NCBI GenBank assembly: GCA_944363865.1
Contig: CALVVN010000024.1
Location: forward strand, 9,400-73,399
Reading direction: 5' to 3'
Length of the DNA stretch: 64,000 bases
DNA from: an uncultured Bacilli bacterium
GTDB lineage: Bacteria; Bacillota_I; Bacilli_A; RF39; UBA660
Shown piece after piece: positions 9,623 to 64,000 of this stretch (position 1 is the first letter of the stretch; each line of letters begins with the position of its first letter). The notes under the pieces were generated by a model that saw only the letters and a list, made by a program, of their open reading frames with translations, was not told the DNA's origin and ran no database searches. A program made the translations under genes and the position numbers.

Positions 9623-9628
9623 ACAAGC

Positions 9629-9840
9629 AAATTGAGGAAGAGGACGAGTAATATTATGAACTGTTTTTAGAAAGTTGGAACGATGAAAGCCAATAACAAG
9701 TATAATATGAATAAAAACCTCGGAAATGACTGACAAGTCCGGATAATTCCGTTATAAAAAAGAGATATCAATTAATGATAAAAAAGGTGGTACCGCGATA
9801 TGACGCCCTTTTGTCATTAATTTTTTTATTATAGAAGGAG
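9629..9840 (+). promoter_or_regulatory. T-box riboswitch leader upstream of lysS
   Basis: conserved T-box sequence AAGGTGGTACCGCG at 9784-9797 followed by GACGCCCTTTTGTCAT hairpin and T-run just before the lysS RBS; ~210-nt leader downstream of consensus promoter. Confidence 0.65.
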
Positions 9841-20335: not shown

Positions 20336-21232
20336 TTAATCAATTTCCACCTTAATATCTAATATTTTCAAGATTCTTTCTAAATCTTTTTCACTATCAA
20401 ATGGTATAGTAATATTTTTATTATTAACCTTTACCATAGTTCCAATTTTATCACGCAATATGTCTTGAACATACTGATAATTAGGGTTAACTTTTGCCTT
20501 TGGTTTAGCTATAGGATTTTTACGAACATAATTCTCATTAACAATATTCTCTAGTTCTCTCACAGATAAGTTTTCATCTACAACTCTTTGCGTTAAGTCA
20601 AAAACTTTCTCTACATCACTAAGTTTACTTAGTATTCTTGCATGTCCCATAGATAATTTATCATCTAAAATAAGTTTCTGAATTTTAGAAGGTAACTGCA
20701 ATAACCCTAAAATATTAGTCAAGTAACTTCTGCTTTTTCCAATCTTCTTGCTTAATTCATCATGAGTTAAATGCAAAGTTTCTAACATCTTTTTATATGC
20801 TTCTGCTTCTTCAATTATATTTAAATCTTCACGTTGTATATTTTCAAGTATAGCAATTTCTAACATTTCTTCATCAGTAAAATCTCTTATTATTGCAGGT
20901 ATTTTTTCAAGACCGGCTTTTCTAGCAGCAAGTGTTCTTCTTTCTCCAGCAACAATTTCATAACCTTTTATGCTACGCTTAACTATAATAGGTTCAATAA
21001 CGCCATACTCTTTTATTGAAGTAGCTAGTTCTTCTAATTTTTCATCATCAAAAACTTTTCTAGGTTGATATGGATTGCTACGAAGTTCACTCAAATTTAA
21101 CAACTTAACATCCTCTTTATTACTACTTTCAATTATATTTCTTTCCAATTCATCAATATTAAAAGCTTCATTGCTGAATAGTTGTTCTAGACCCTTCCCT
21201 AATGCTCTCCTCTTCTCTTGCATTTCTTTCAA
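20336..21232 (-). CDS. parB: chromosome partitioning protein ParB/Spo0J
   Basis: 298 aa; ALGKGLEQLF, LRSNPYQPRK..., GERRTLAARKAGLEKIPAII ParB box/HTH; start may be an internal ATG (e.g. 21223) because 65 nt overlap parA. Confidence 0.9.
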   Translation of the reverse strand: MKEMQEKRRALGKGLEQLFSNEAFNIDELERNIIESSNKEDVKLLNLSELRSNPYQPRKVFDDEKLEELATSIKEYGVIEPIIVKRSIKGYEIVAGERRTLAARKAGLEKIPAIIRDFTDEEMLEIAILENIQREDLNIIEEAEAYKKMLETLHLTHDELSKKIGKSRSYLTNILGLLQLPSKIQKLILDDKLSMGHARILSKLSDVEKVFDLTQRVVDENLSVRELENIVNENYVRKNPIAKPKAKVNPNYQYVQDILRDKIGTMVKVNNKNITIPFDSEKDLERILKILDIKVEID

Positions 21233-21998
21233 TCACTTCCTTTGCTAAATTAATATACGCCAAAGCCCCTCTACATTTTGGATCATATTCAATTATAGGT
21301 TTTCCATGACTTGGTGCTTCTACTAATCTTACCAATCTAGGAATTATAGTATTAAATACTTTTTCCTTAAAAAACTTTCTTACATCTTCTACTACTTCTA
21401 AACCAACTAACGTTCTCCCATCTAACATAGTTAAAAGTACACCTTCAATATCCAATTTAGGGTTAACCTTAGTTTGAGTTAAAATTATAGTGTTTAATAA
21501 CTGAGTAACACCTTCTAATGCAAAATATTCACACTGAACAGGTATCAAAACACTATCTGATGCTGCTAAAGCATTAGTCGTTAAAATCCCTAAAGCCGGT
21601 GGACAATCAATAATTATAAAATCATATCTATCTTTAATTTTATTAATTTGATTCTTTAACTGATCCCCAAGTATAAAATTCTCTTCTTTCATACTAGTTT
21701 GCATTAATTCAATTTCAACACCACTCAAAAAAATCATAGAAGGAATTACACTAAGATTTTTAAACCTAGTTTTAACAATTGCTTCTGATATTTCGCATCT
21801 GTTAGTTATTACATCATAAATACTAAGTTTAATATTACCTTTATTCATCCCTAAGCCAGTTGTACTATTACTTTGAGGATCCAAATCTATTAATAAAACC
21901 TTCTTACTCAAGTGGCCTAAAGCACTACTTAGGTTAATACTAGTAGTCGTTTTGCCAACTCCGCCTTTTTGATTTACCAGTGATATAACTTTAGCCAT
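21168..21998 (-). CDS. parA: chromosome partitioning ATPase ParA/Soj
   Basis: 276 aa; deviant Walker A NQKGGVGKTTTSINL; ~20-aa C-terminal extension relative to typical Soj. Confidence 0.9.
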   Translation of the reverse strand: MAKVISLVNQKGGVGKTTTSINLSSALGHLSKKVLLIDLDPQSNSTTGLGMNKGNIKLSIYDVITNRCEISEAIVKTRFKNLSVIPSMIFLSGVEIELMQTSMKEENFILGDQLKNQINKIKDRYDFIIIDCPPALGILTTNALAASDSVLIPVQCEYFALEGVTQLLNTIILTQTKVNPKLDIEGVLLTMLDGRTLVGLEVVEDVRKFFKEKVFNTIIPRLVRLVEAPSHGKPIIEYDPKCRGALAYINLAKEVIERNAREEESIREGSRTTIQQ

Positions 21999-34969: not shown

Positions 34970-37063
34970 TTAATATTCATCAATGTCATTGATTTTCTCT
35001 AGACTCTTGTGATTTTTTACAATTTTTACTATTCCAACATTATTATTAAAAGCTATAGAAGCTATATTTCCTTGAATTTGAACTACAATACCATTGCCAT
35101 ATTTTAAATGTTTAACCTTATCTCCAACTTTTAATTCATCATTTCTACTATCCTCATACATGTCGCTAATAGTATTTATTTCATTAAAAGATTCATTGCT
35201 TTCAATCAAATCAGAATTAATCTCAGATATAAAACGGCTTGGCATATTTATATCTGTACGTCCAAAAAGCGTACGTCTTTTGCAATTCAACAAATATAAC
35301 CTTTCTCTAGCCCTTGTTATTCCAACATAACAAAGTCTACGTTCTTCTTCAAGTTCATCTTCATCATCTATAGACCTAAAATGTGGAAAAACATTTTCTT
35401 CTAAACCGGTGATAAATACTATATCAAACTCTAAACCTTTAGCAGAATGTAACGTCATAACGTTTACACAGTCATCGATATCTTTATACTGGCCAAAATC
35501 ACTTACTAGTGCTATATTTTCTAGAAATTCTTCTAATGAGTATATACCACGTTCTTCAAATGCTAAAGCTATGCTTTTAAATTCCTCCAAGTTTTCAAGG
35601 CGAATTTCACTATCTATGCCGCCTGTTAGTTCTAATTCTTTTTTCATTCCAGATAAACCTAATATTTTATCTATAAGTTCCGATAAATTAACGTTCTTAG
35701 ATTCATCGATCAATTTAAGTATTAGTTCCTTAAATTCCATCGGTGTTCCACTTTTGATAGCATCAAACATAGAGGTCCCCATCGCTTTTGCATCTTCCCT
35801 AATTTTTTCTATAGTTTTAATTCCAATTTTACGTTTTGGAACATTAATTATTCTTTCTAAACTTTCATTATCTTTAGTATTATAAATTAAATTTAAATAA
35901 GCAATTAAATCCTTTATCTCTTTTCTATTATAAAAATAATAACTTCCAACCACTTTATACGGAATATTTTCTTTTAGCAAAGCTTCTTCTATAACACGGC
36001 TTTGCGCATTCGTGCGATATAAAATACCAAAATCAGAATATTTTTTTCCATTTAACAACAATTTTTTAATTTCAGTCACTACTTCTTTAGCTTCATCAAT
36101 TTCATTACCGCAACGTATATATTTTATTTTTTCGCCAAGATCCTTAGTACTAATTAGATTTTTTTCTTTTCTTTTAACGTTATGTTTTACAACACTATTA
36201 GCAGCATCTAATATATTTTTAGTACTTCTATAATTTTCTTCTAAGATTATAACTCTAGAATTATCATAATCTTTCTCAAAATTCAAAATATTTTGGTAAT
36301 TAGCGCCCCTCCAACCATAAATACTTTGGTCAATATCGCCGACAACAAAAATATTCTTATATTTACTGGCTAATAACTTACATAATTCATATTGAACACC
36401 ATTAGTGTCCTGATATTCATCAACCAATATATACTTATAATGTTCCTGATATTTTTCTAATATATGTTTATTATTTTTAAATAATTGAACTGGCAAAACT
36501 AATAAATCATCAAAATCAACGGAGTTATTTGACTTTAAAATTGAAATATACCTATTAAAAACTTTAATAACAGTTTCATCTATATAACCTTTCATAAATC
36601 TACTATATTCTTCTGGAGTTAAACCTTCATTTTTAGCAAAACTAATTTTATTAATAACATATTTTATGGGTATAACTTTAGTATCAACATTAAATTCCTT
36701 TAATATTTTTCTTATTATGCTAGTCATATCTTCTCTATCAATTATAGAAACATTCTTATCAAAACCTAGTTCCTTATAATTTTCCCTAATTATTTTTAAA
36801 CCAAAAGAATGAAAAGTTCCAATAAAAATGTCACTAGCAACATTATATATTTTATTTTCAATTCTTTCTTTCATCTCATTAGCTGCTTTGTTTGTAAAAG
36901 TTATTGCTAATATATTATTTGGAGAAGCCCCTTCTTCAATCAATTTAACAATTCTTTCGGTTAAAACTCTAGTTTTTCCACTTCCGGCACCAGCCAAAAC
37001 TAAACAAGGTCCGTCTTTAAAATTAACGGCTTCTTTTTGCATTTCATTTAACAACTTCATCAC
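34970..37063 (-). CDS. pcrA: ATP-dependent DNA helicase PcrA (UvrD family)
   Basis: 697 aa; LVLAGAGSGKTRVLTERI Walker A, VDEYQDTN motif II, full 1A/1B/2A/2B architecture. Confidence 0.9.
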   Translation of the reverse strand: MMKLLNEMQKEAVNFKDGPCLVLAGAGSGKTRVLTERIVKLIEEGASPNNILAITFTNKAANEMKERIENKIYNVASDIFIGTFHSFGLKIIRENYKELGFDKNVSIIDREDMTSIIRKILKEFNVDTKVIPIKYVINKISFAKNEGLTPEEYSRFMKGYIDETVIKVFNRYISILKSNNSVDFDDLLVLPVQLFKNNKHILEKYQEHYKYILVDEYQDTNGVQYELCKLLASKYKNIFVVGDIDQSIYGWRGANYQNILNFEKDYDNSRVIILEENYRSTKNILDAANSVVKHNVKRKEKNLISTKDLGEKIKYIRCGNEIDEAKEVVTEIKKLLLNGKKYSDFGILYRTNAQSRVIEEALLKENIPYKVVGSYYFYNRKEIKDLIAYLNLIYNTKDNESLERIINVPKRKIGIKTIEKIREDAKAMGTSMFDAIKSGTPMEFKELILKLIDESKNVNLSELIDKILGLSGMKKELELTGGIDSEIRLENLEEFKSIALAFEERGIYSLEEFLENIALVSDFGQYKDIDDCVNVMTLHSAKGLEFDIVFITGLEENVFPHFRSIDDEDELEEERRLCYVGITRARERLYLLNCKRRTLFGRTDINMPSRFISEINSDLIESNESFNEINTISDMYEDSRNDELKVGDKVKHLKYGNGIVVQIQGNIASIAFNNNVGIVKIVKNHKSLEKINDIDEY

Positions 37064-39185: not shown

Positions 39186-39956
39186 TTAAGCCTCATTCCT
39201 TGGATAACCAACACTCATAACGCCTTTTGTTTTTAAACCTCCAATGCCATCTTTACCATACTTTGTCTTTTCTAAAAGACTTATTAAATCTATTTCTTTC
39301 CCCTTTTCAGTCAAACATATATTAGTTGCGATAATAGCTGGATCTAAAGCGTGAATATTAATTCTCTTAGGACTTGAAGCAAAAGTAGCGCCCGCCTTAA
39401 TAAGTTCTTCATAATTACTTTGACAAGCTCCAGCAATAATAATTAAATTATCACCTCTACTTTTTCTAGCTTCTTTAACGCATTTTATAAAGTTATCACT
39501 GTTTTTATACAGATTCTTATCTGTAATTCTTTTTTTTAATATAGCATCATGTCCAGTAACAATTAAAATATCCGGATTAACAGAATCAATATATTTTGTA
39601 ACTTCTTTATGCATCAACGATTCTTTTATAGACTTTCCATATGCAACAACGTTTGCTTTTTTGTAAAAGTCCATACATCGTTTTAAATACGAATCGTCTC
39701 CATCTAAATGTAACACTTTTCCAGGCAAATAAAAATACTCACTTCTATCAAGTTCTATCTCTTTTATACATTTATATAAATCTTCTTCACCACTTTCTCT
39801 TTTATCACTAAGTACCAAATCACTTTCATCGGCATCAGCAATTAATCTTACATCTACTCCCTTTAAAATACAATTTTTTCCTATTTTATCAATTACTAAA
39901 AAAACAATATCATGTTTATAACTTCTTCTAGTAACGTAATCACCAACATTTATCAT
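39186..39956 (-). CDS. yabG: sporulation-specific peptidase YabG
   Basis: 256 aa; MINVGDYVTRRSYKHDIVFLVI...VRLIADADESDLV matches YabG N-terminus. Confidence 0.8.
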   Translation of the reverse strand: MINVGDYVTRRSYKHDIVFLVIDKIGKNCILKGVDVRLIADADESDLVLSDKRESGEEDLYKCIKEIELDRSEYFYLPGKVLHLDGDDSYLKRCMDFYKKANVVAYGKSIKESLMHKEVTKYIDSVNPDILIVTGHDAILKKRITDKNLYKNSDNFIKCVKEARKSRGDNLIIIAGACQSNYEELIKAGATFASSPKRINIHALDPAIIATNICLTEKGKEIDLISLLEKTKYGKDGIGGLKTKGVMSVGYPRNEA

Positions 39957-43013: not shown

Positions 43014-43535
43014 CTAGTCAGTTTCTAATTTTATTTTTATAAGAGAATCAATTATATCTACTATCAATTTATCTTGGTTAGTAATTTCCTTTTCACTTAT
43101 ACATATTATTGAGCCAACTAAATCAGTATTTACTATAATTGGTTTAATATAATAGTTACCTTTTATAACACTATCTTCACATATATTTAAATTAATGCCA
43201 GTACCAATTTTTCGTTCTTCAAAAATACTGTTTAAATTATTGCCCACTTTTTTATTTTCTAGAACTTTAAAATCATTTTTATTAGAAAAAATAACATATT
43301 CTCTATCTGTAACAATTAATGATATAGGCATTAACTTATTAAATAAATTGATATAACTTATAACTACATCTTTAAAAGTTAAAAGTCTATGATATTTTTT
43401 TAAAATTATATTGTCATTTTCTACATATATTTCTAATTCTTCTCCATCTTTTATATTTAAATTTTTACGTATTTCTTTAGGAATAACGATTCTACCTAAT
43501 TTATCTATTTTTCTAATTAATCCAGTATTTACCAT
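43014..43535 (-). CDS. spoVT: stage V sporulation protein T (AbrB-N + GAF-like)
   Basis: 173 aa; MVNTGLIRKIDKLGRIVIPKEIRKNLNIKDGEELEIY AbrB/MazE swapped-hairpin N-domain plus C-terminal domain of SpoVT length. Confidence 0.8.
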   Translation of the reverse strand: MVNTGLIRKIDKLGRIVIPKEIRKNLNIKDGEELEIYVENDNIILKKYHRLLTFKDVVISYINLFNKLMPISLIVTDREYVIFSNKNDFKVLENKKVGNNLNSIFEERKIGTGINLNICEDSVIKGNYYIKPIIVNTDLVGSIICISEKEITNQDKLIVDIIDSLIKIKLETD

Positions 43536-47859: not shown

Positions 47860-48704
47860 TGTTTTTTCTCCTCAAACATATTATACAACAGATTTTTACT
47901 AATATTATATTTTTTTGAAATATATTTCATAGCGTTTTTCTTTTCCATTCCATAACTAATTAATTCGTTCATTTCAGAAAACGCTAGTGTTTCATTTTTA
48001 TTAATTTCATTATTGTCAACAATTATAACAAACTCTCCTTTAGGTTCTTTAAAAAGCTTAATAGCATCTGCAACATTACCTCTATAAACTTCTTCATATA
48101 CTTTTGATATTTCCCGGGAAATAGAAATAATTTTATTTCCCAAGATATTATTAATATTTTGTAAAGTTTTTATCAACCTATGAGGAGATTCATATAAAAC
48201 AAATGTAAAGTTGATATTTTTTAACACTTCAAGTTCTCTTTTACATTCTTCATTTTTATTACTTAAAAATCCATAAAAAATAAATCTATCTGATTTAATA
48301 TTTGACATATTCAACGCCGGTAAAAAAGCACATGCTCCTGGCAACGCCACTACCGAATAGCCTGATTCTATTACTTTGTTAACTACAACATAACCAGGAT
48401 CACTTATCAAAGGCGTTCCACGATCAGTAACTAAAGCAACACTTTTTCCTTCTTGCAAATTGTGGATAACTTGTGGATAAATAGACATTTCATTAAACTT
48501 ATGACAAGAAATTAATTTAGTTTTAATTTTATAATGATTAAATAATATTTTAGTTACTCTAGTATCTTCTGAATAAACTACTGATACTCCTTTCAATATT
48601 TCTATAGCTCTTAATGTAATATCCAACATATTTCCAATAGGAGTTGGTACAATATATAATTTACTTTTATCATCATAGCTTTTCTGTATCATCGTTACCT
48701 CCAA
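47856..48704 (-). CDS. rsmI: 16S rRNA (cytidine1402-2'-O)-methyltransferase RsmI
   Basis: 282 aa; LYIVPTPIGNMLDITLRA, SEDTR motifs of tetrapyrrole-methylase fold RsmI. Confidence 0.85.
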   Translation of the reverse strand: MEVTMIQKSYDDKSKLYIVPTPIGNMLDITLRAIEILKGVSVVYSEDTRVTKILFNHYKIKTKLISCHKFNEMSIYPQVIHNLQEGKSVALVTDRGTPLISDPGYVVVNKVIESGYSVVALPGACAFLPALNMSNIKSDRFIFYGFLSNKNEECKRELEVLKNINFTFVLYESPHRLIKTLQNINNILGNKIISISREISKVYEEVYRGNVADAIKLFKEPKGEFVIIVDNNEINKNETLAFSEMNELISYGMEKKNAMKYISKKYNISKNLLYNMFEEKKQ

Positions 48705-52179: not shown

Positions 52180-53820
52180 TTAATTTATATTTTCTACATC
52201 CTCACCAAATATGTTTGATGTAACATCTTCAAAAGATGTTTTAGATTCTTTTACTTCAATATTAGTTTCTGGAATAAATTCATAGGAAATGTTATTCTTT
52301 TTATTAGATATAAAATCATTTTTTAACATTATCCATTCGTCATTTGTAACACAAACCACTTTAAAATTAATATCATATATTTCAAATAAAAGTTTTTCAA
52401 TTTTTTTGATATTACTCATAAACACTTGGATTAAAGATTTATCTTCAAAATCAAACAACAAATATTCATTAGATGCAACCACTATCTTTCCAGACAACAA
52501 TAGTGCAGCAACATTATTATATACCTTATTTGCAATAAAATCATTAATTCTTTCATAATCTTTATTAACTTTATTTAAAAATTCCTTATTTGCAGTTACA
52601 AAGCAATTATTAATTCTAACTTTACGAAAACTATCTATATCAATTATTTTTGATTCATTTACATTATTATCTTTTTTATTTTTAGTATTATCATTGTAAT
52701 TTACATTATTTATATTTGCAATTCTGTCAACATTATTATCCAAATATACATCTTTATTTACAGTATGAATTAAATATATATAATATATTTCAAATAAATT
52801 CTTTTGATTGTTTGACTTTACAATTTGACTTGATAATTCTAGCAATATTCTTGTCATTTCCTTTATTATATCAATACTTAAATCAAACGTTAAATAGACT
52901 TTTTTCTCTTCTTCAGCAAAATATGAACTTATATTTTGCGCTAAAGATATATTTCTTAACAAAATTAATAATTCATCAACAATAGTATTTAAATTTTTAC
53001 CAGTGGTAACAAAATTATCAATTAATTTCATACCAACATCGACTTCATTATCGCAAATACTTTTAAGAAATTCTATTATAGTTTTTTCTGACACTCTTCC
53101 CTGCAAATCGTATATTTCATCTTCAGTAATATTATCATTTGATAAAGAAATAACTTGATCTAGTAAATTGATTGCATCCCTACATCCTCCATCGGATAAT
53201 TTTGTTATAAGCCTTAGCACATTATCTGATATTTCTTTCTTTTCTAGAGTGCATATTTCTTTCAATTTAGCAAACATTTCTTCGCTATCTATTTTTTTAA
53301 AATCAAATCTTTGACATCGTGATAAAATAGTTAATGGTATTTTATGCATGTCTGTCGTAGCTAAAATAAATATAACATGTGCTGGTGGCTCTTCTAAAGT
53401 TTTTAATAAAGCATTAAAAGCACCTGTTGATAACATGTGAACTTCATCAATAATATAAACTTTATATTTTGCTACGGTTGGAACTAATTTAACTTTAGAT
53501 CTAATTTCACGTATTTCTTCAACTCCATTGTTACTAGCAGCATCAATCTCAATTATATCAACATCATTAACTTCTAAGTTTTTGCACATTTCACAGTTTC
53601 CACAATAATTTCCGTTGCTGTTATCTAAACAATTAACTGTTTTTGCAAATATCTTAGCAATACTGGTTTTACCTGTTCCACGGGGCCCATTAAATAAATA
53701 TGCATGAGAAATGTGATTGTTAATAATACTATTTTTTAATATTTCCACCACAACTTTTTGACCAATAACATCATCAAAGTTTTTAGGACGATATTTACGA
53801 TATAATGCAATATAAGACAT
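52180..53820 (-). CDS. dnaX: DNA polymerase III subunits gamma/tau
   Basis: 546 aa; GPRGTGKTS Walker A, zinc module CGNCEMC, IIDEVHMLS. Confidence 0.95.
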   Translation of the reverse strand: MSYIALYRKYRPKNFDDVIGQKVVVEILKNSIINNHISHAYLFNGPRGTGKTSIAKIFAKTVNCLDNSNGNYCGNCEMCKNLEVNDVDIIEIDAASNNGVEEIREIRSKVKLVPTVAKYKVYIIDEVHMLSTGAFNALLKTLEEPPAHVIFILATTDMHKIPLTILSRCQRFDFKKIDSEEMFAKLKEICTLEKKEISDNVLRLITKLSDGGCRDAINLLDQVISLSNDNITEDEIYDLQGRVSEKTIIEFLKSICDNEVDVGMKLIDNFVTTGKNLNTIVDELLILLRNISLAQNISSYFAEEEKKVYLTFDLSIDIIKEMTRILLELSSQIVKSNNQKNLFEIYYIYLIHTVNKDVYLDNNVDRIANINNVNYNDNTKNKKDNNVNESKIIDIDSFRKVRINNCFVTANKEFLNKVNKDYERINDFIANKVYNNVAALLLSGKIVVASNEYLLFDFEDKSLIQVFMSNIKKIEKLLFEIYDINFKVVCVTNDEWIMLKNDFISNKKNNISYEFIPETNIEVKESKTSFEDVTSNIFGEDVENIN

Positions 53821-54248: not shown

Positions 54249-54259
54249 ACCTTACTCCT

Positions 54260-54338
54260 AAAAAAAAGTGCACATACATAGTAAGTGTTAAGGCTGCTAT
54301 TTTCCAATCCTGACCTGATTCCACGCTATGTATTGCAC
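54260..54338 (-). ncRNA. ffs: small (4.5S-type) signal recognition particle RNA
   Basis: minus-strand transcript GUGCAAUACAUAGCGUGGAAUCAGGUCAGGAUUGGAAAAUAGCAGCCUUAACACUUACUAUGUAUGUGCAC-U8: 13-bp terminal helix, domain IV motifs CAGGUCAGG ... GGAA tetraloop ... AGCAGCC (cf. E. coli CAGGUCAGGUCCGGAAGGAAGCAGCC); TTGAAT-17-TATAAT promoter at 54345-54373. Confidence 0.75.
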
Positions 54339-54373
54339 GATTAAATTATAATATATTAACGTTAAAAATTCAA

Positions 54374-54389
54374 TGTTCCACGTGGAACA
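54374..54389. promoter_or_regulatory. parS site 1 (ParB/Spo0J binding), core TGTTCCACGTGGAACA within 30-bp perfect palindrome 54367-54396
   Basis: perfect 16-bp palindrome matching Firmicute parS consensus tGTTnCACGTGaAACa; flanks AATTCAA/TTGAATT also symmetric. Confidence 0.75.
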
Positions 54390-54418
54390 TTGAATTTCCT
54401 AATATATTTACTAGCTGA

Positions 54419-54434
54419 TGTTCCACGTGGAACA
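54419..54434. promoter_or_regulatory. parS site 2, core TGTTCCACGTGGAACA within 18-bp palindrome
   Basis: identical 16-bp core; right flank TTTATTCTGAATTATTATC repeats the gyrA 3' end. Confidence 0.75.
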
Positions 54435-54721
54435 TTTATTCTGAATTATTATCTATTAAAACATGTAATATATACATATTCGTTACCTTATAATATTTAA
54501 AACGTAGTTATTTTATTGCCTATTACTTGTTTTTTTAAATTACTATGATTATTCATAGCAATATTTTTTATATTTTTACTAACTAATAATGTTAGTAAGT
54601 TTTTTACCTACAACTTTAAGTAAAACTACTATCAACTAAGCATATATTTTTTAATAGCAAAAATCCTTGTTTATATTAATTATTTTACGTTTTTAATTTG
54701 TTTATACAAAAAAAATATCAA

Positions 54722-54737
54722 TGTTCCACGTGGAACA
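54722..54737. promoter_or_regulatory. parS site 3, core within 30-bp perfect palindrome 54715-54744
   Basis: ATATCAA-TGTTCCACGTGGAACA-TTGATAT. Confidence 0.75.
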
Positions 54738-54785
54738 TTGATATAAAATCCTATTCAATCATATATTTTTGTATTAAAACAATAA

Positions 54786-54801
54786 TGTTCCACGTGGAAC
54801 A
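54786..54801. promoter_or_regulatory. parS site 4, core within 32-bp perfect palindrome 54778-54809
   Basis: AACAATAA-TGTTCCACGTGGAACA-TTATTGTT. Confidence 0.75.
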
Positions 54802-54880
54802 TTATTGTTTATATCTTTAATTTAATTTTTATGATACATATTATGTATTGTTTTACTTAAGTCATATTTTTTTTCTTTAA

Positions 54881-54896
54881 TTTTCCACGTGGAACA
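54881..54896. promoter_or_regulatory. parS site 5 (one mismatch: TTTTCCACGTGGAACA), 1 bp from gyrA stop codon
   Basis: 15/16 match to the other four copies; followed by gyrA stop region. Confidence 0.6.
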
Positions 54897-54897
54897 T

Positions 54898-57321
54898 TTA
54901 TTCTGAATTATTATCAATCAATGCGATTGATGTAACATAATTGTTATCTTTTAGATTAATTAATTTTACTCCTTGCGTAACTCTTCCCATTAAAGAAATA
55001 TTATCAATATTTAATCTAATAACTATTCCATTCTTAGTAATTATCATTAAATCACATGAAGCATTAATTAATTTAAATCCAATTATATTTCCATTTTTTT
55101 CAGTAATTTTTAATGTTTTTACACCCTTACTGCCTCTTTTAGTTTCCCTATAATTATCTATAGTAGTTTTTTTGCCATATCCATTCTTAGTAACTACTAA
55201 AGCTAATGAATTCTCACTTGTTACTTCCAAACCAATGCAAGTATCATTAACTAAGTTTATACCTCTAACACCAGAAGCACTTCTTCCCATTAATCTTATT
55301 TCTGACTCGTTAAACTTCACCATTCTTCCATTAGAAGAACACATTAATACCTTATCACCAATTTTTGATTTTCTAACAGCAATTAGTTCATCATTTTCTC
55401 TTAAATTAATAGCTAATTTACCATTTTTTCTAATGTTATCAAATTCTTTCAAAGAAGTTTTTTTCACTATCCCATTTTTCGTTGCAAAAATTAAATGTTG
55501 ATAACTTGTTTGCCTTTCAAGGACTAAAATAGTGTTGATAACTTCTTCCTTTTCCAAAGGTAACAAATTAACAATTGGTAAACCTTTAGATATTCTGCTA
55601 AACTCAGGTATCTCATAACCTTTTAATCTATAGACTTTACCTTTATTTGAGAAGAAGAATAGATAATCATGTGTATTTAAATTGATTATTTGTTCTACAA
55701 AATCTTCTTCGTTTGTAGTCATTCCTTTAATACCAACGCCGCCTCTATTTTGAGCTTTATAAGTATCGCTATTTACCCTCTTAATATAATTTTTATTAGT
55801 AATAGTTAAAACAATGTTTTCTTCAGGAATAAGAGATTCATCTTCAATATACTCAATCGCGCTCATATCAATCATAGTTCTCCTACTATCTGAATATTTG
55901 TTCTTTATTTCAGTCAATTCATCTTTAATTATTTCTTCAACAAGTTTATCACTTGCCAAAATAGCTCGTAATCTATCAATCTCTTTTAATAATTCTGCTA
56001 ATTCATTTTCAATTTTATCTCTTTCTAAACCAGTTAAACGACGCAACTTCATTTCAAGTATACTATCAGCTTGAATTTCACTTAATTCAAATCTAGATAT
56101 CAACTTTTCTTTAGCAATTTCATCACTTTTAGCAGTTTTAATAATTTGAATTACTTCATCAATATTATCCAATGCAATTTTTAAACCTTCTAAAATATGT
56201 ACCCTTTTTTCACATTTTTCTAGATCAAACCTAGTTCTTCTAATAATTACTTCCTTTTGATAATCTACATATTTTGAAATTATGTCTTTAAGACCTAAAG
56301 TTTTAGGAACTCCATTGTCTAACATCAAAAAGATAATTCCAAAATTACTTTGAAATGCTGTATGCTTATATAAATTATTCAATACTACTTGAGGATTTGC
56401 ATCCTTTTTTAAAGTTATAGTTATCTTAACACCATTTTTTAAATCTGTATGATAATCTGCAATGCCATCAATAGTTTTATTGTGTACAAGTTCTGCAACT
56501 TTATTTTTTAATTCTAGCGTATTAACTCCATAAGGAACTTCATCAATAACGATTAAATGTTTGCCATTTTTTTCTTCTATTGTCGCTTTACTTCTAAGAG
56601 TTATTGATCCTCTACCAGTTTCATAAGCTTGTTTAATTCCACTATTTCCTAAAATAATCGCACCTGTTGGAAAATCCGGACCTTTTATATGTTCCATTAA
56701 ACCTAAAACGTCAATATCTGGATTATCTATATATGCAATACAACCATCAATTACTTCTCCCAAATTATGAGGCGGAATATTTGTTGCCATTCCAACCGCA
56801 ATACCCATAGTTCCATTAACAAGAATATTTGGAAATCTAGAAGGCAATATTTTTGGCTCTTTTTCAGATTCATCAAAGTTTGGTTCAAAATCGACTGTAT
56901 TTTTCCCAATATCTCTTAATAATTCCAACGAAATCTTAGAAAGTCGTGATTCTGTGTAACGCATCGCTGCTGCACCATAACCTTCAATATTTCCGAAATT
57001 ACCATGACCATCAACGAGCATATATCTATAATTAAAATCTTGAGCCATTCTAACCATTGCTTCATAAATAGATGAATCGCCATGAGGATCATATTTTCCC
57101 ATTACATCTCCTACTATCCTAGCAGATTTCTTATGCGGTTTGTCTGGAGTATAACCAGATTCATACATTGGATAAAGTATTCTTCTATGAACAGGTTTTA
57201 ATCCGTCTCTTAAATCAGGCAAGGCACGAGAAACAATAACACTCATAGAATATTCTAAAAAAGATGTTTCAATTTCATTAACAATATTATTTTCTTCTAA
57301 TCTATCTCTACTATGATCCAT
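54898..57321 (-). CDS. gyrA: DNA gyrase subunit A
   Basis: 807 aa; active-site region AAMRYTE (Tyr), QRDR-like [18 protein letters not shown]-terminal beta-pinwheel repeats. Confidence 0.95.
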
Positions 57322-60424: not shown

Positions 60425-60877
60425 TCAAATTCTTTGTTTTCTATCATTTAATACTACTTGCAATCTAGATGAACGCAAAATTTGATTAGTTATTGTTCCA
60501 ATACTAGCAAAAACTTCTAATTCTTTTCCATTTTTAAATCTTATAATAGTTGATTTTTGATTTTTTCCTTGCTTATAGCTTAATACATTATTAAAACTAA
60601 CCCAAGAGCATAGTTCATTTCTTGGAGAATTTAAAGGAAAAAAAATAATATTTGAACTTTCTTCAATAAATATTGGCGATTTATGAGTAACACCAATCAA
60701 AGACTTAGTTCCTAATTGTCTACCTTCCATAGTAGATCCAAAATATTCACAACTATGTTCAATTACTTTACTAGCACTAATATTTACTTCATATTCTGCA
60801 TCAGATTCATATATTTTAGTTTTTTTACCTTCCAGCGCACAAATATAAAGAGTATTATTATTAATTTCATATTCCAT
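60425..60877 (-). CDS. ComK-family protein (competence transcription factor family)
   Basis: start moved to MEYEINNN (GGGGGTGATAGG RBS) from track ATG 60943; SCEYFGSTMEGRQLGT, THKSPIFIEESSNIIFFPLNSPRNELCSWVSF, IIRFKNGKELEVFASIGTITNQILRSSRLQ align with B. subtilis ComK SCRFFGSSYAGRKAGT / SHKPPIMVDPSNQIFLFPTLSSTRPQCGWISH / EVTFSNGKTMELPISYNSFENQVYRTAWLR. Confidence 0.7.
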   Translation of the reverse strand: MEYEINNNTLYICALEGKKTKIYESDAEYEVNISASKVIEHSCEYFGSTMEGRQLGTKSLIGVTHKSPIFIEESSNIIFFPLNSPRNELCSWVSFNNVLSYKQGKNQKSTIIRFKNGKELEVFASIGTITNQILRSSRLQVVLNDRKQRI

Positions 60878-60977
60878 CCTATCACCCCCGTTCTTGAAAT
60901 TAATACTTCCATTATAACATATAAGTTTGTCGATAAATGTCATTTTTTGTCAAAAAAAAAGAAAATTTAAATTTTCT

Positions 60978-62222: not shown

Positions 62223-63611
62223 TTATTCACCTATCTTTTGTTTTAAGTCATTTATAATTTTACCAAGTTCCACGTTTGATTTCAAATCCTTACTAATCTT
62301 TTCATAAGCATGAATTACTGTAGAATGGTCTCTTCCACCAAATTCTAGTCCAATCCGTGGATAAGTTTCTTCAGTCATAGTTCTACAAAGATACATAGCT
62401 ATCATACGAGCATTAGCAATAACTTTACTTCGTTTTTTTCCTTTTAAATCTTCAATATGTAAATTAAAGAATGACGCAACAATATTTTGTATTTTTTCAA
62501 CGGTATTAGGAGCATATATAGAATTATTCGTATAATCTTTTAAAGCTTCCCGTACATCATCTAAAGTTAATTTTTTAATATTCATAATTGCAGAAAATGC
62601 ATGCAATCTAGTAATAGCGCCTTCTAGATTCCTAACATCACTACCACAATTAGCAGCTATAAAATCAATAATAGAATCATCTAAATCTATGATTAAATCC
62701 CCACTTTTTATTTTATTTCTTATAATTTTTACTTTTAAATCAAATTCTGGAACAGATATAATTGCCTTCAATCCCCAGTTAAATCTGGTTTTTAATCGTT
62801 CTTCAAATAATTTTAAATCATCAACACTTCTGTCAGAACATATGATAATTTGCTTTTCATTATAATATAAACTATTAAAAGTATTAGTAAACTCTTGTTG
62901 GGTTTTAATTGCTCCAACTAGAAACTGAATATCATCAATCATTAAAACATCAATATCTCTATATTTACTTTTAAAAATCTCAATATAAGTTAAATTATCC
63001 TCTTTACTACCGCCATCTTTAGTTAAGCTTATAAACTCATTTATAAATTGTTCACTTGTTATATACAAAACTTTTTTATCAGAATGTTCTAAAAGATAAT
63101 TTCCAATAGCATGCATTAAATGAGTTTTTCCAAGTCCACTTTTACCATAAAGAAAAAGTGGATTATATAATTTTCCAGGTTTTTCTGCAACTGCTAATGC
63201 ACTACTATAAGCAAATCTATTTGAATCCCCCACTATAAAATTATCAAAAGTGTATTTAGGATTAAAATTAGAAAAATATTTATAAGATGATTTTTCATTA
63301 TCAGATTGATTTTCAACAATGTTATTAACTTTTGAGTTATCAACATTGTTTTTTTGATCAACAACTTCATTTTCCAAAAGTATATCAATAGATTTATATA
63401 AACCTGTAATTTCAGAAAAGACATCTTCTATTAATTCCTTATATAAATGAATAAGTTGGTTTTTTTGAGCTTCAAAAGGTACTGTTAATATTATTGAATC
63501 ATTGTCAATTCTTTCAAGTTTTAAATCTTTAAACCACGTTTGAAAAGATATACTAGATACCTTAGTAATTATAAGTTGTAAAAATTTATTCCATATTTCA
63601 TTATTACTCAT
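62223..63611 (-). CDS. dnaA: chromosomal replication initiator DnaA
   Basis: 462 aa; AAA+ Walker A GKSGLGKTHLMHAIGN, C-terminal DNA-binding domain ...IGLEFGGRDHSTVIHAYEKI. Confidence 0.97.
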   Translation of the reverse strand: MSNNEIWNKFLQLIITKVSSISFQTWFKDLKLERIDNDSIILTVPFEAQKNQLIHLYKELIEDVFSEITGLYKSIDILLENEVVDQKNNVDNSKVNNIVENQSDNEKSSYKYFSNFNPKYTFDNFIVGDSNRFAYSSALAVAEKPGKLYNPLFLYGKSGLGKTHLMHAIGNYLLEHSDKKVLYITSEQFINEFISLTKDGGSKEDNLTYIEIFKSKYRDIDVLMIDDIQFLVGAIKTQQEFTNTFNSLYYNEKQIIICSDRSVDDLKLFEERLKTRFNWGLKAIISVPEFDLKVKIIRNKIKSGDLIIDLDDSIIDFIAANCGSDVRNLEGAITRLHAFSAIMNIKKLTLDDVREALKDYTNNSIYAPNTVEKIQNIVASFFNLHIEDLKGKKRSKVIANARMIAMYLCRTMTEETYPRIGLEFGGRDHSTVIHAYEKISKDLKSNVELGKIINDLKQKIGE

Positions 63612-63699
63612 AAAACCACCCTAGATAAAGTACCTTTCAACATAATTGTAAAACATTTTTTATTAATTTGATAGCATTTTTTTTATGTAAACAAATATT

Positions 63700-63935
63700 A
63701 ACATAGTTATCAACAACTTATTAACATAATTTTTTCCTATTTTATAGCATTTTTTTTAAATTATCAACATTATTAACAATTTTTATATTAACATGTTAAT
63801 AACACGTTAAATACTTATCAACATAATTGTTTATAAACAAATTGTATTACATAAATTAAAGGAAAAAAGCGTAAAGTTATTAACAATTTATTAACGTTAA
63901 TAATAATTAAACAAAAATAAATTGTTAATAAGTTC
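63700..63935. promoter_or_regulatory. oriC segment 1 (upstream of dnaA) DnaA-box cluster
   Basis: perfect TTATCAACA at 63707, 63761, 63815 (same orientation, exactly 54 bp apart); one-mismatch boxes TTATTAACA at 63770 and 63877 and inverted TGTTAATAA at 63795 and 63924; AGGAGG RBS at window end suggests rpmH follows. Confidence 0.8.
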
Positions 63936-64000
63936 AAGCATAAAAACTTGTTGACAAAATAAAAATAATTTTTTATAATTAATGCGATTAAGGAGGCAAA

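What the first reader, a model, noticed from the sequence alone, without database searches (positions are those of the whole stretch)
54367..54900. Intergenic array of five ParB-type parS palindromes between gyrA and ffs/tadA
The 16-bp perfect palindrome TGTTCCACGTGGAACA occurs four times (54374, 54419, 54722, 54786) plus one 15/16 copy (54881) inside a single ~530-bp non-coding gap about 9 kb from dnaA. It is a symmetric variant of the Firmicute parS consensus (B. subtilis TGTTCCACGTGAAACA). The window also carries parA/parB (20.3-22.0 kb), so the cognate ParB is encoded ~33 kb away. Well-studied Firmicutes carry single parS sites dispersed over the origin-proximal region, often inside genes such as spo0J. 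I did not see a parS inside parB here. A five-site intergenic array is not the usual arrangement and would act as a very strong ParB nucleation / SMC-loading centre (a centromere-like 'super-site').
Basis: partly seen in the sequence, partly recalled or inferred. Interest (0 to 1): 0.7.

Follow-up and report, generated by a model that had tools for sequence, protein, structure and literature searches.

The report
Origin-proximal parS centromere array
Five copies of the bacterial centromere sequence parS sit in the gap after the gyrase gene, about 9 kb from the replication origin of an uncultured gut Bacillus-class bacterium; this is a real, lineage-wide chromosome-segregation site, but it is a familiar kind of element in a new place.

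Summary
Four perfect copies of TGTTCCACGTGGAACA and one 15/16 copy lie in the 550-bp non-coding gap between gyrA and the SRP-RNA gene ffs. Chance predicts none, and the 64-kb window holds no other copy. The window encodes ParA and a Spo0J-type ParB with the CTP motif and parS-type specificity residues. Sibling strains carry six perfect sites in the same gap. All 74 related species whose contig extends far enough beyond gyrA carry 1-11 consensus parS sites in the gyrA-(ffs)-tadA-dnaX gaps: 335 of 338 sites fall there, and none in the 10 kb upstream. The 16-bp cores are kept while spacers and copy number turn over. The array is therefore a genuine, selected parS centromere.

The claim of rarity is overstated. 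Tight parS clusters are common in metagenomes and known in other phyla, so this is a new member of a known kind.

Further points:
- Three sites are 30-34-bp hairpins, and one of them is a good gyrA terminator.
- One site abuts the ffs -35 box.
- In many relatives, but not in this genus, Noc-binding sites and DnaA-box-like motifs alternate with parS in the same arrays.

ParB binding was not tested.

The parts
54374..54389 (.). parS-1. Perfect 16-bp palindrome, the core of a perfect 32-bp palindrome (54366-54397). It directly abuts the -35 hexamer of the ffs promoter.
   Evidence: I11; RNA hairpin -19.4 kcal/mol, z -5.9
54419..54434 (.). parS-2. Perfect 16-bp palindrome with only 1 bp of extension. 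It is followed by a copy of the last 19 nt of gyrA, so it is part of a segmental duplication.
   Evidence: (D2)
54722..54737 (.). parS-3. Perfect site, the core of a 30-bp palindrome (54715-54744). On the gene (minus) strand it is followed by T8, which makes it a likely intrinsic terminator for gyrA read-through.
   Evidence: I14; terminator scan; -16.8 kcal/mol, z -5.3
54786..54801 (.). parS-4. Perfect site, the core of a 34-bp palindrome (54777-54810). It is terminator-like on the plus strand and has a weak T-run on the minus strand.
   Evidence: (I10)
54881..54896 (.). parS-5. Degenerate 15/16 copy starting 1 nt after the gyrA stop codon. The mismatch is at position 2 of a half-site, which is invariant in the P. 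aeruginosa sites. Sibling strains have two perfect sites here.
54864..54921 (.). Direct repeat, 83% identical to 54402-54459. It consists of the gyrA 3' end plus a parS, duplicated 462 bp away, and is a trace of how the array grew.
   Evidence: (D2)
54345..54373 (-). Sigma-70-type promoter of ffs, TTGAAT-17-TATAAT. The TTG of the -35 box is supplied by the flank of parS-1. The arrangement is conserved in the five species of the genus.
54252..54347 (-). ffs, the small SRP RNA gene that bounds the array downstream.
   Evidence: RF00169, 55.4 bits, gathering score 40
54898..57321 (-). gyrA, the gene that bounds the array upstream.
   Evidence: NF004043, 1148 bits
53850..54248 (-). tadA-like deaminase. 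dnaX follows at 52180-53820.
20336..21232 (-). parB (Spo0J type), the inferred cognate clamp. It has the GERR CTP motif, the HTH with R173 and G201 (parS-type) and the N-terminal RRALGKGLEQLF peptide. The likely start is the ATG at 21223.
   Evidence: (6SDK, E 1.8e-58)
21168..21998 (-). parA (Soj type) with the deviant Walker A motif KGGVGKT.
62223..63611 (-). dnaA. The AT-rich gap upstream (63612-64000) carries three TTATCAACA boxes 54 bp apart and is the probable oriC.

Best explanation
The five palindromes are the chromosomal centromere (parS) of this bacterium, an uncultured low-GC gut member of class Bacilli.

Inferred mechanism, taken from work on ParB homologues:
- Dimers of the ParB encoded at 20.3-21.2 kb recognise each 16-bp site through their helix-turn-helix.
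- They bind CTP, close into sliding clamps and leave the site.
- Several adjacent sites together load a dense ParB zone that spreads over roughly 10-15 kb. Such a zone would cover oriC, which is about 9 kb away.
- The ParB zone is moved by ParA and probably loads SMC.

Shown here by comparison:
- The array is kept at this exact spot, between gyrA and ffs/tadA/dnaX, throughout the clade.
- Its copy number changes through local segmental duplication and deletion.

Secondary roles, inferred from anatomy:
- Three sites have grown into 30-34-bp hairpins. At least the one at 54715-54744 is likely to double as the intrinsic terminator of gyrA.
- parS-1 abuts the -35 box of ffs, so bound ParB could modulate that promoter.
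For: 1. Sequence. There are four perfect matches and one 15/16 match to the parS consensus, with 0 expected by chance, and they are unique in 64 kb. The 16-mer is identical to experimentally validated high-affinity parS sites.
2. Partner proteins. A parA-parB operon lies in the window. ParB is closest to B. subtilis Spo0J (E 1.8e-58 against 2.9e-46 for Noc), has the GERR CTP motif, and carries R173/G201 rather than the Noc-type Q173/R201.
3. Position. The array is about 9 kb from dnaA. In a congener the GC skew and gene orientation switch just upstream of dnaA.
4. Selection. Sibling strains have six perfect sites. In 80 related species-level loci, 335 of 338 consensus sites lie in the gyrA-to-dnaX interval (3.55 per kb against 0.0023 per kb elsewhere). 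All 74 loci with enough sequence after gyrA have at least one site. The cores are perfect while the spacers cannot be aligned between genera.
5. Dose effect. ParB-dependent DNA condensation in vitro rises with parS number (PMC8299390). ParB spreads about 15 kb (PMC9242446 abstract). SMC loads at parS (PMC4536313 abstract).
6. Terminator. The hairpin has an energy of -16.8 kcal/mol and is followed by U8 on the gene strand.
Against: - No binding, ChIP or Hi-C data exist, because the organism is uncultured.
- A genome-wide census of parS was impossible: only 64 kb plus 10-kb flanks in relatives could be read. Other sites elsewhere, and therefore the relative weight of this cluster, are unknown.
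- One parS is sufficient for segregation in P. aeruginosa, so the extra copies may add little.
- Only 14 of 81 extended hairpins in the clade have a T-run on the gene strand. The terminator role cannot explain most of the extensions.
- parS-5 carries a mismatch at a normally invariant position and may be inactive.
Confidence: 0.85

Rival explanations
1. The sites are genuine parS, but their number has no function. The array would be a neutral by-product of repeated local duplication and deletion in a repeat-prone, AT-rich gap, and one site would do the whole job.
For: - Copy number varies from 1 to 11 between species and from 5 to 6 between strains.
- Duplications drag along gene fragments: the gyrA 3' end in the window, and an ffs plus tadA 5' copy in L012.
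- A single parS suffices in P. aeruginosa (PMC4368675).
Against: - Nearly every species keeps several perfect copies, usually 3-9, although the spacers diverge completely.
- Degenerate copies are rare: most sites have 0 mismatches. This argues for purifying selection on each copy.
- In vitro, condensation scales with the number of sites.
Confidence: 0.15
2. The palindromes are mainly RNA or DNA hairpins, that is intrinsic terminators or REP-like extragenic palindromes, and their likeness to parS is incidental.
For: - Three of the five sites form hairpins of -17 to -19 kcal/mol.
- Two match a terminator pattern.
- 24% of the clade's sites have at least 5 bp of perfect extension, against 0.7% in controls.
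Against: - The invariant part is exactly the 16-bp ParB consensus, whereas the outer stem sequence differs at every site.
- Two of the five window sites and 76% of the clade's sites are not extended.
- Only 17% of extended sites have a T-run on the gene strand.
- The motif is absent after every other gene in the 64 kb and in the 1.29 Mb of related loci outside the gyrA-dnaX interval. This is unlike terminators or REP elements.
Confidence: 0.03
3. The sites are bound by a different protein: the ParB paralogue Noc, or a local CACGTG-binding regulator of gyrA or ffs.
For: - The clade does use Noc. Perfect Noc-binding sites are about 1000-fold over-represented in the related loci, and L079 encodes a Noc-type paralogue.
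- The best NCBIfam hit of the window's ParB is the Noc model, although below its cut-off.
Against: - Noc recognises ATTTCCCGGGAAAT, a distinct palindrome that occurs separately in these genomes.
- The window protein has R173/G201, which specify parS. It follows parA in an operon and scores higher against Spo0J than against Noc structures.
- No regulator gene is linked to the gap.
Confidence: 0.02

Closest known systems
B. subtilis Spo0J/parS. The consensus is TGTTCCACGTGAAACA, with about 10 sites, mostly origin-proximal.
   Same: It shares the same 16-bp palindrome family and a ParB closest to Spo0J with the CTP motif. It also has a Soj-type ParA, an origin-proximal location, and the same gene neighbourhood order on the right side of oriC.
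   Different: In B. subtilis the sites are single, spread over hundreds of kb and often inside genes, including spo0J. Here there are 5-6 sites within 0.55 kb of non-coding DNA, none in parB, and parAB lies 33 kb from the sites, after ftsH.
Clustered chromosomal parS: P. aeruginosa parS1-4, C. glutamicum, Caulobacter, gut Firmicutes of the OMM12 consortium (PMC4368675, PMC7083940, PMC5815017, PMC10197239)
   Same: Several consensus sites are grouped close to oriC. The identical perfect 16-mer occurs in P. aeruginosa parS2/3. The presumed role is redundancy or robustness of ParB loading.
   Different: The density here is much higher (about 9 sites per kb in the window's gap). The location is fixed between gyrA and ffs/tadA/dnaX rather than next to parAB. 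In my metagenome sample the commonest context of tight pairs was directly upstream of parA.
F-plasmid sopC-type centromere: tandem direct repeats that each hold one binding palindrome (recalled from general knowledge)
   Same: Some relatives have true tandem arrays with one parS per unit: L078 with a 51-bp period, L059 with 37 bp and L071 with 136 bp.
   Different: The window's own array is not tandem. Its spacings are 45, 303, 64 and 95 bp and Tandem Repeats Finder reports nothing. The site also belongs to the chromosomal parS family, not the SopB site.
Noc-NBS nucleoid-occlusion system of Firmicutes
   Same: It uses a paralogous CTP-dependent clamp with a related palindromic loading site. 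One perfect NBS lies in the window at 48109.
   Different: The sequence is different (ATTTCCCGGGAAAT). In B. subtilis about 70 NBS are scattered around the chromosome (PMC4331003). The window's array contains none.

Membership tests
Chromosomal ParABS centromere (parS) | 16-bp palindrome matching TGTTNCACGTGNAACA | tested here: met
   Four perfect copies and one 15/16 copy, with 0 expected by chance. The sequence is identical to P. aeruginosa parS2/3.
Chromosomal ParABS centromere (parS) | The genome encodes a ParB with an HTH, the CTP-binding GERR box and parS-type specificity residues (R173, G201) | tested here: met
   read against the residue rules in PMC7383237: GKSR...GHAR gives R173, I179, Q184 and G201.
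Chromosomal ParABS centromere (parS) | Partner ParA (Soj-type deviant Walker A ATPase) in an operon with parB | tested here: met
   KGGVGKT motif, directly upstream of parB.
Chromosomal ParABS centromere (parS) | Origin-proximal location | tested here: met
   The array is 8.7-9.2 kb from the dnaA start. In congener L012 the skew and gene orientation switch just upstream of dnaA.
Chromosomal ParABS centromere (parS) | Sites conserved in relatives while the surrounding non-coding DNA diverges | tested here: met
   74 of 74 informative related loci have sites, and 335 of 338 sites lie in the gyrA-to-dnaX interval.
Chromosomal ParABS centromere (parS) | ParB binds, loads and spreads from the sites; SMC is recruited | not testable with these tools
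   This needs ChIP, BLI or Hi-C. The organism is uncultured.
Chromosomal ParABS centromere (parS) | Sites rare or absent far from the origin (genome-wide distribution) | tested here: inconclusive
   There are none elsewhere in the 64-kb window, and only 3 in the 1.29 Mb of related loci outside the gyrA-to-dnaX interval. No whole genome could be read, and every contig of the species breaks about 390 bp upstream of dnaA.
Noc-binding sites (NBS) | Palindrome ATTTCCCGGGAAAT | tested here: not met
   There is no NBS with up to 2 mismatches in the gap. The only one in the window is at 48109.
Intrinsic (Rho-independent) terminator | GC-containing hairpin followed by a U-tract on the transcribed strand | tested here: met
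   Met for 54744-54715 on the minus strand (13 bp stem, U8). The feature is weak or absent for the other four sites, and only 14 of 81 extended sites in the clade have it.
Tandem-repeat centromere (sopC-like) | Head-to-tail repeat units of constant period | tested here: not met
   TRF finds nothing in the window gap. The feature is met only in some relatives, for example L078.
REP/MITE-like dispersed extragenic palindromes | Many copies dispersed in unrelated intergenic regions | tested here: not met
   There is no copy outside this gap in 64 kb. In relatives 99% of copies lie in one interval.

The most novel reading that the evidence does not exclude
In this uncultured Bacilli lineage the gyrA-dnaX gap is not just a parS cluster. 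It would be the chromosome's single, fast-evolving 'regional centromere' or origin-organising hub, where loading sites for three origin-linked proteins are built into the same repeat units. These are ParB (parS), the membrane-tethering paralogue Noc (NBS) and DnaA (TTTTCCACA boxes). The units expand and contract by segmental duplication. The window's genus would be the stripped-down, parS-only version. The long hairpin extensions would be selected as terminators or insulators, or as cruciforms that aid clamp loading, rather than being mutational by-products.
Probability: 0.2. Interest if true: 0.6.

Novelty: new member of a known kind. Interest (0 to 1): 0.4.

Why it matters
The array gives a confident centromere and origin landmark for a large, uncultured group of reduced-genome gut Bacilli. 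That is useful for orienting MAGs, for growth-rate estimates from origin/terminus coverage, and for reading metagenomic Hi-C maps. It also explains why many assemblies of these organisms break right after gyrA: 27 of 80 contigs end within 1.5 kb of it. The comparative series forms a natural experiment on how many loading sites a ParB system wants and how centromere arrays are born and lost, because copy number ranges from 1 to 11 with irregular to perfectly tandem spacing. The relatives with strictly alternating parS and Noc sites would let one ask how two paralogous CTP clamps share one stretch of DNA.

Tried and rejected
- DnaA boxes in the window's gap: none with up to 1 mismatch, and none matching the relaxed TTWTNCACA. 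The gap is therefore not a DnaA-box cluster in this species.
- Small ORFs: nothing longer than 40 aa, and nothing conserved.
- Known RNAs in the 285-nt spacer: only ffs passes. The sub-threshold hits are eukaryotic miRNA models caught by the inverted repeats.
- Tandem repeat structure: none in the window.
- Terminator role as a general explanation of the hairpin extensions: rejected, because only 17% have a T-run.
- The extensions are not peculiar to this clade either. Of unrelated metagenomic parS sites, 6-10% have them.
- Reaching the other side of oriC, to look for noc or more parS: every contig of the species ends about 390 bp upstream of dnaA.
- Livny et al. 2007 could not be read.
- I considered that the ParB-like gene might be Noc, because the top NCBIfam hit is the Noc model. 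I rejected this on the score being below cut-off, the specificity residues, the operon context and the PDB ranking.
Full report
**Observation.** The sequence is as described. Perfect TGTTCCACGTGGAACA occurs at 54374, 54419, 54722 and 54786, and TTTTCCACGTGGAACA (15/16) at 54881. Dinucleotide-preserving shuffles give 0.00 expected matches. The degenerate consensus TGTTNCACGTGNAACA finds the same five sites and nothing else in the 64 kb. Start-to-start spacings are 45, 303, 64 and 95 bp.

**Context.**
- All flanking genes are on the minus strand: dnaA (63611-62223), dnaN, a ComK-family gene, recF, gyrB, gyrA (57321-54898), the gap, ffs (Rfam small SRP RNA, 54347-54252), a tadA-like deaminase (54248-53850), dnaX, ybaB and recR.
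- The gap has no ORF longer than 40 aa, no tandem repeat and no other Rfam family.
- The DNA is about 26% GC.
- parA (21998-21168) and parB (21232-20336) follow tilS and ftsH, about 33 kb from the array.
- The best GyrA relatives are uncultured gut Bacilli MAGs, including Candidatus Faecimonas, Coprovivens, Onthousia and Caccenecus, which NCBI places in Bacilli incertae sedis.
- In congener L012 both GC skew and gene orientation switch in the gap just upstream of dnaA. oriC is therefore about 9 kb from the array.

**Same species.**
- Metagenome assemblies from other samples that encode the identical TadA carry the same gap; the five that span it (L001-L005) have six perfect sites.
- Compared with them, the window strain lacks 45 bp between the first two sites and has several substitutions there. 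That is where the 15/16 copy comes from.
- The layout in the sibling strains is an about 85-bp unit, made of the last 18 nt of gyrA, a parS, 29 nt and a second parS. This unit occurs directly after gyrA and again in front of the ffs promoter.
- The two unit copies bracket about 420 bp that hold two more sites. The window keeps the trace of this duplication: 54402-54459 against 54864-54921 at 83% identity.
- In L012 a second copy of ffs plus the first codons of tadA sits inside the array. The array therefore grows and shrinks by local segmental duplication and deletion.

**Across species.**
- One scan of the species-representative genome collection with GyrA returned 80 loci at 71-98% identity.
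- Every locus with more than about 450 nt after gyrA (74 of 74) has 1-11 consensus sites in the non-coding gaps between gyrA, (ffs), tadA and dnaX. The six loci without sites end within 423 nt of gyrA.
- 335 of 338 sites lie in that interval, at 3.55 per kb against 0.0023 per kb in the other 1.29 Mb. None lies in the 10 kb upstream that includes dnaA.
- Both consensus variants occur (TGTTTCACGTGAAACA and TGTTCCACGTGGAACA).
- Within the genus, only the last parS, the ffs promoter and ffs itself are invariant across the five species. The spacers cannot be aligned across the genus.
- Some species have true tandem arrays, with periods of 28, 37, 51 or 136 bp.
- 27 contigs stop within 1.5 kb after gyrA, as expected if the repeats break assemblies.
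- This is strong evidence for purifying selection on the 16-bp cores and on the location.

**The protein partner.**
- The ParB-family protein aligns best with B. subtilis Spo0J (6SDK, E 1.8e-58), ahead of Noc structures (2.9e-46).
- It has the IVAGERR CTP-binding box and the N-terminal RRALGKGLEQLF peptide typical of ParA-activating ParBs.
- Read against the four specificity positions defined by Jalal et al. 2020 (PMC7383237), its HTH (GKSR...N-I...Q...GHAR) gives R173, I179, Q184 and G201. That is the parS-specific pattern, not the Noc pattern of Q, K, K and R.
- ParA has the deviant Walker A motif KGGVGKT.

**Fine structure.**
- Sites 1, 3 and 4 are the cores of perfect palindromes of 32, 30 and 34 bp whose outer arms differ from one another. 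As RNA they fold at -16.8 to -19.4 kcal/mol, with z-scores of -5.3 to -6.1.
- The site at 54722 is followed by eight T on the gene strand and matches a terminator pattern, which shuffles almost never produce. It probably terminates gyrA.
- parS-1 ends exactly where the -35 hexamer of the ffs promoter begins (TTGAAT-17-TATAAT). The same abutment is kept in all five species of the genus. ParB could therefore influence ffs-tadA-dnaX transcription, as reported for promoters next to parS3/4 in P. aeruginosa (PMC5521831 abstract). This is speculation.
- In the clade as a whole, 81 of 343 sites have at least 5 bp of perfect extension, against 9 of 1357 control positions. Only 14 of these 81 have a T-run on the gene strand.
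- Unrelated metagenomic parS sites also show extensions at 6-10%. Most extensions are therefore not terminators. Quasipalindrome correction by template switching is a plausible neutral cause, but that is an inference from general knowledge.

**How it most likely works.**
- Shown: canonical sites, a matching ParB and ParA, origin proximity, and lineage-wide selection.
- Inferred from homologues: ParB dimers nucleate on each site, bind CTP, close and slide away, and spread about 15 kb (PMC9242446 abstract). Several adjacent sites raise the loading rate and the ability to condense DNA. In vitro, condensation by B. subtilis ParB scaled with 7, 13 and 26 sites and was not seen with 1-4 sites (PMC8299390).
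- The ParB complex is the cargo of ParA and the loading point of SMC (PMC4536313 abstract).

**Rivals.**
- Terminators or REP-like hairpins: rejected. The invariant part is the ParB consensus, most sites are not extended, and the motif is confined to one interval.
- Noc or another regulator: rejected on the site sequence and the specificity residues.
- Neutral multiplicity of genuine sites: this remains possible (about 0.15). A single site suffices in P. aeruginosa (PMC4368675), but nearly every species keeps several perfect copies.
- Assembly artefact: excluded by the independent assemblies.

**How unusual is it?**
It is not unusual in nature.
- Most of these contigs have 2-3 sites just upstream of parA. 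Several unrelated contigs have 5-15 sites per kb (L148 next to dnaA, L162, L175, L186).
- The low-GC contigs with gyrA, tadA or dnaX context belong to the present clade.
- The literature describes clusters near ori in gut Firmicutes and others, and 1 to more than 20 sites per genome (PMC10197239, PMC7022226).
- I found no paper on parS in this lineage, or on parS hairpin extensions, in the held library. That is not proof of absence.
- What is specific here is the fixed gyrA-ffs-tadA-dnaX location, away from parAB, and the high density.

**Noticed along the way.**
- The window has one perfect Noc-binding site, ATTTCCCGGGAAAT, at 48109 inside the rsmI-like gene.
- In the 80 related loci there are 148 such sites with up to 1 mismatch, where 0.15 are expected.
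- 88 of them lie inside the same gyrA-dnaX interval, at 0.93 per kb against 0.046 per kb elsewhere. This holds in 45 of 80 species, often in strict alternation with parS: P-N-P-N in L068, L069, L071, L076 and L088, and five NBS in a row in L063.
- L079 encodes, right after rsmG, a ParB paralogue with Q173, K179 and R201, the Noc pattern.
- In L068, L018, L019 and others a DnaA-box-like TTTTCCACA sits next to each parS.
- The window's genus has neither NBS nor DnaA-box-like motifs in its array.
- In B. subtilis the NBS are scattered (PMC4331003). Arrays with interleaved parS and NBS appear to be undescribed and are the most interesting lead from this work, but they lie outside the finding itself.

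**Limits.** No binding data exist and no whole genome could be read. The other side of oriC could not be reached. I did not look for SMC/ScpAB genes beyond the ORFs I scanned; no such family appeared among them.

**Verdict.** This is a genuine, selected parS centromere array and a new member of a well-known kind. Interest is 0.4, mostly because of the lineage-wide comparative picture.

Noticed in passing
window 48109-48122; L009-L088: A perfect Noc-binding site (ATTTCCCGGGAAAT) lies inside the rsmI-like gene, made with rare GC-rich codons (I-S-R-E-I as ATT TCC CGG GAA AT). In related loci NBS are about 1000-fold over chance. 88 of 148 lie inside the gyrA-dnaX parS arrays, often alternating P-N-P-N within one repeat unit (L068, L069, L071, L076, L088). 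The window's genus has none in its array. Only 7 of 35 rsmI orthologues carry the NBS at the homologous codons; among the 14 with the identical SISREIS peptide, 5 do.
   Followed up: partly
L079 1218-2693: A 491-aa ParB paralogue sits directly after rsmG. It has Noc-type specificity residues (GVSQ gives Q173, plus K179 and R201) and a long low-complexity C-terminal tail. It is the probable Noc of this clade. No noc gene is present in the 64-kb window.
   Followed up: partly
L018 12870-13900, L019 12600-13650, L068 12390-13260, L014, L015, L023, L041: DnaA-box-like motifs (TTTTCCACA, TTATCCACA, TTTTTCACA) sit at a fixed offset next to many parS sites, about 19 or 30 nt centre to centre and pointing at the site. 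They are about 2-fold enriched in the arrays overall and absent from the window's genus.
   Followed up: partly
window 54366-54397, 54715-54744, 54777-54810; all related loci: parS cores, and NBS cores too, are often embedded in much longer perfect palindromes with site-specific outer arms: 24% of parS in the clade, 6-10% in unrelated metagenomes and 0.7% at control positions. Terminator function explains only a minority, and the cause is unresolved.
   Followed up: partly
window 60425-60943 (minus strand): A ComK-family gene (Pfam PF06338, E 1.8e-40) lies between dnaN and recF, where B. subtilis has yaaA. It is about 6 kb from the array, so inside the likely ParB spreading zone. ParB spreading modulates competence genes in S. 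pneumoniae (PMC4488948 abstract).
   Followed up: no
window 63612-64000; L001, L209-L213: Every assembly of this species, and the window itself, ends about 390 bp upstream of dnaA. That stretch has three TTATCAACA boxes exactly 54 bp apart (63707, 63761, 63815). A repeat in or next to oriC probably breaks the assemblies.
   Followed up: partly
window 48461-48480 (minus strand): Two perfect DnaA boxes (TTATCCACA) lie 11 bp apart inside or next to the rsmI-like gene, about 350 bp from the NBS.
   Followed up: no
window 35279-35377 (minus strand): An Rfam hit to n00280, a C. difficile sRNA located in a helicase gene (68.6 bits, gathering score 65.2), lies inside the UvrD/PcrA-type helicase ORF 34970-37063. 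A T-box leader at 9626-9813 precedes a class II aminoacyl-tRNA synthetase gene.
   Followed up: no
window 39186-39956 and 43014-43535: Homologues of the sporulation proteins YabG (peptidase U57) and SpoVT are present, and the gene order is B. subtilis-like on the right side of oriC. This suggests that this reduced-genome gut lineage may form spores.
   Followed up: no
L012 12560-12720: A second, slightly diverged copy of ffs plus the first codons of tadA is embedded inside the parS array of a congener. This is a segmental duplication of the same kind that copied the gyrA 3' end in the window.
   Followed up: partly
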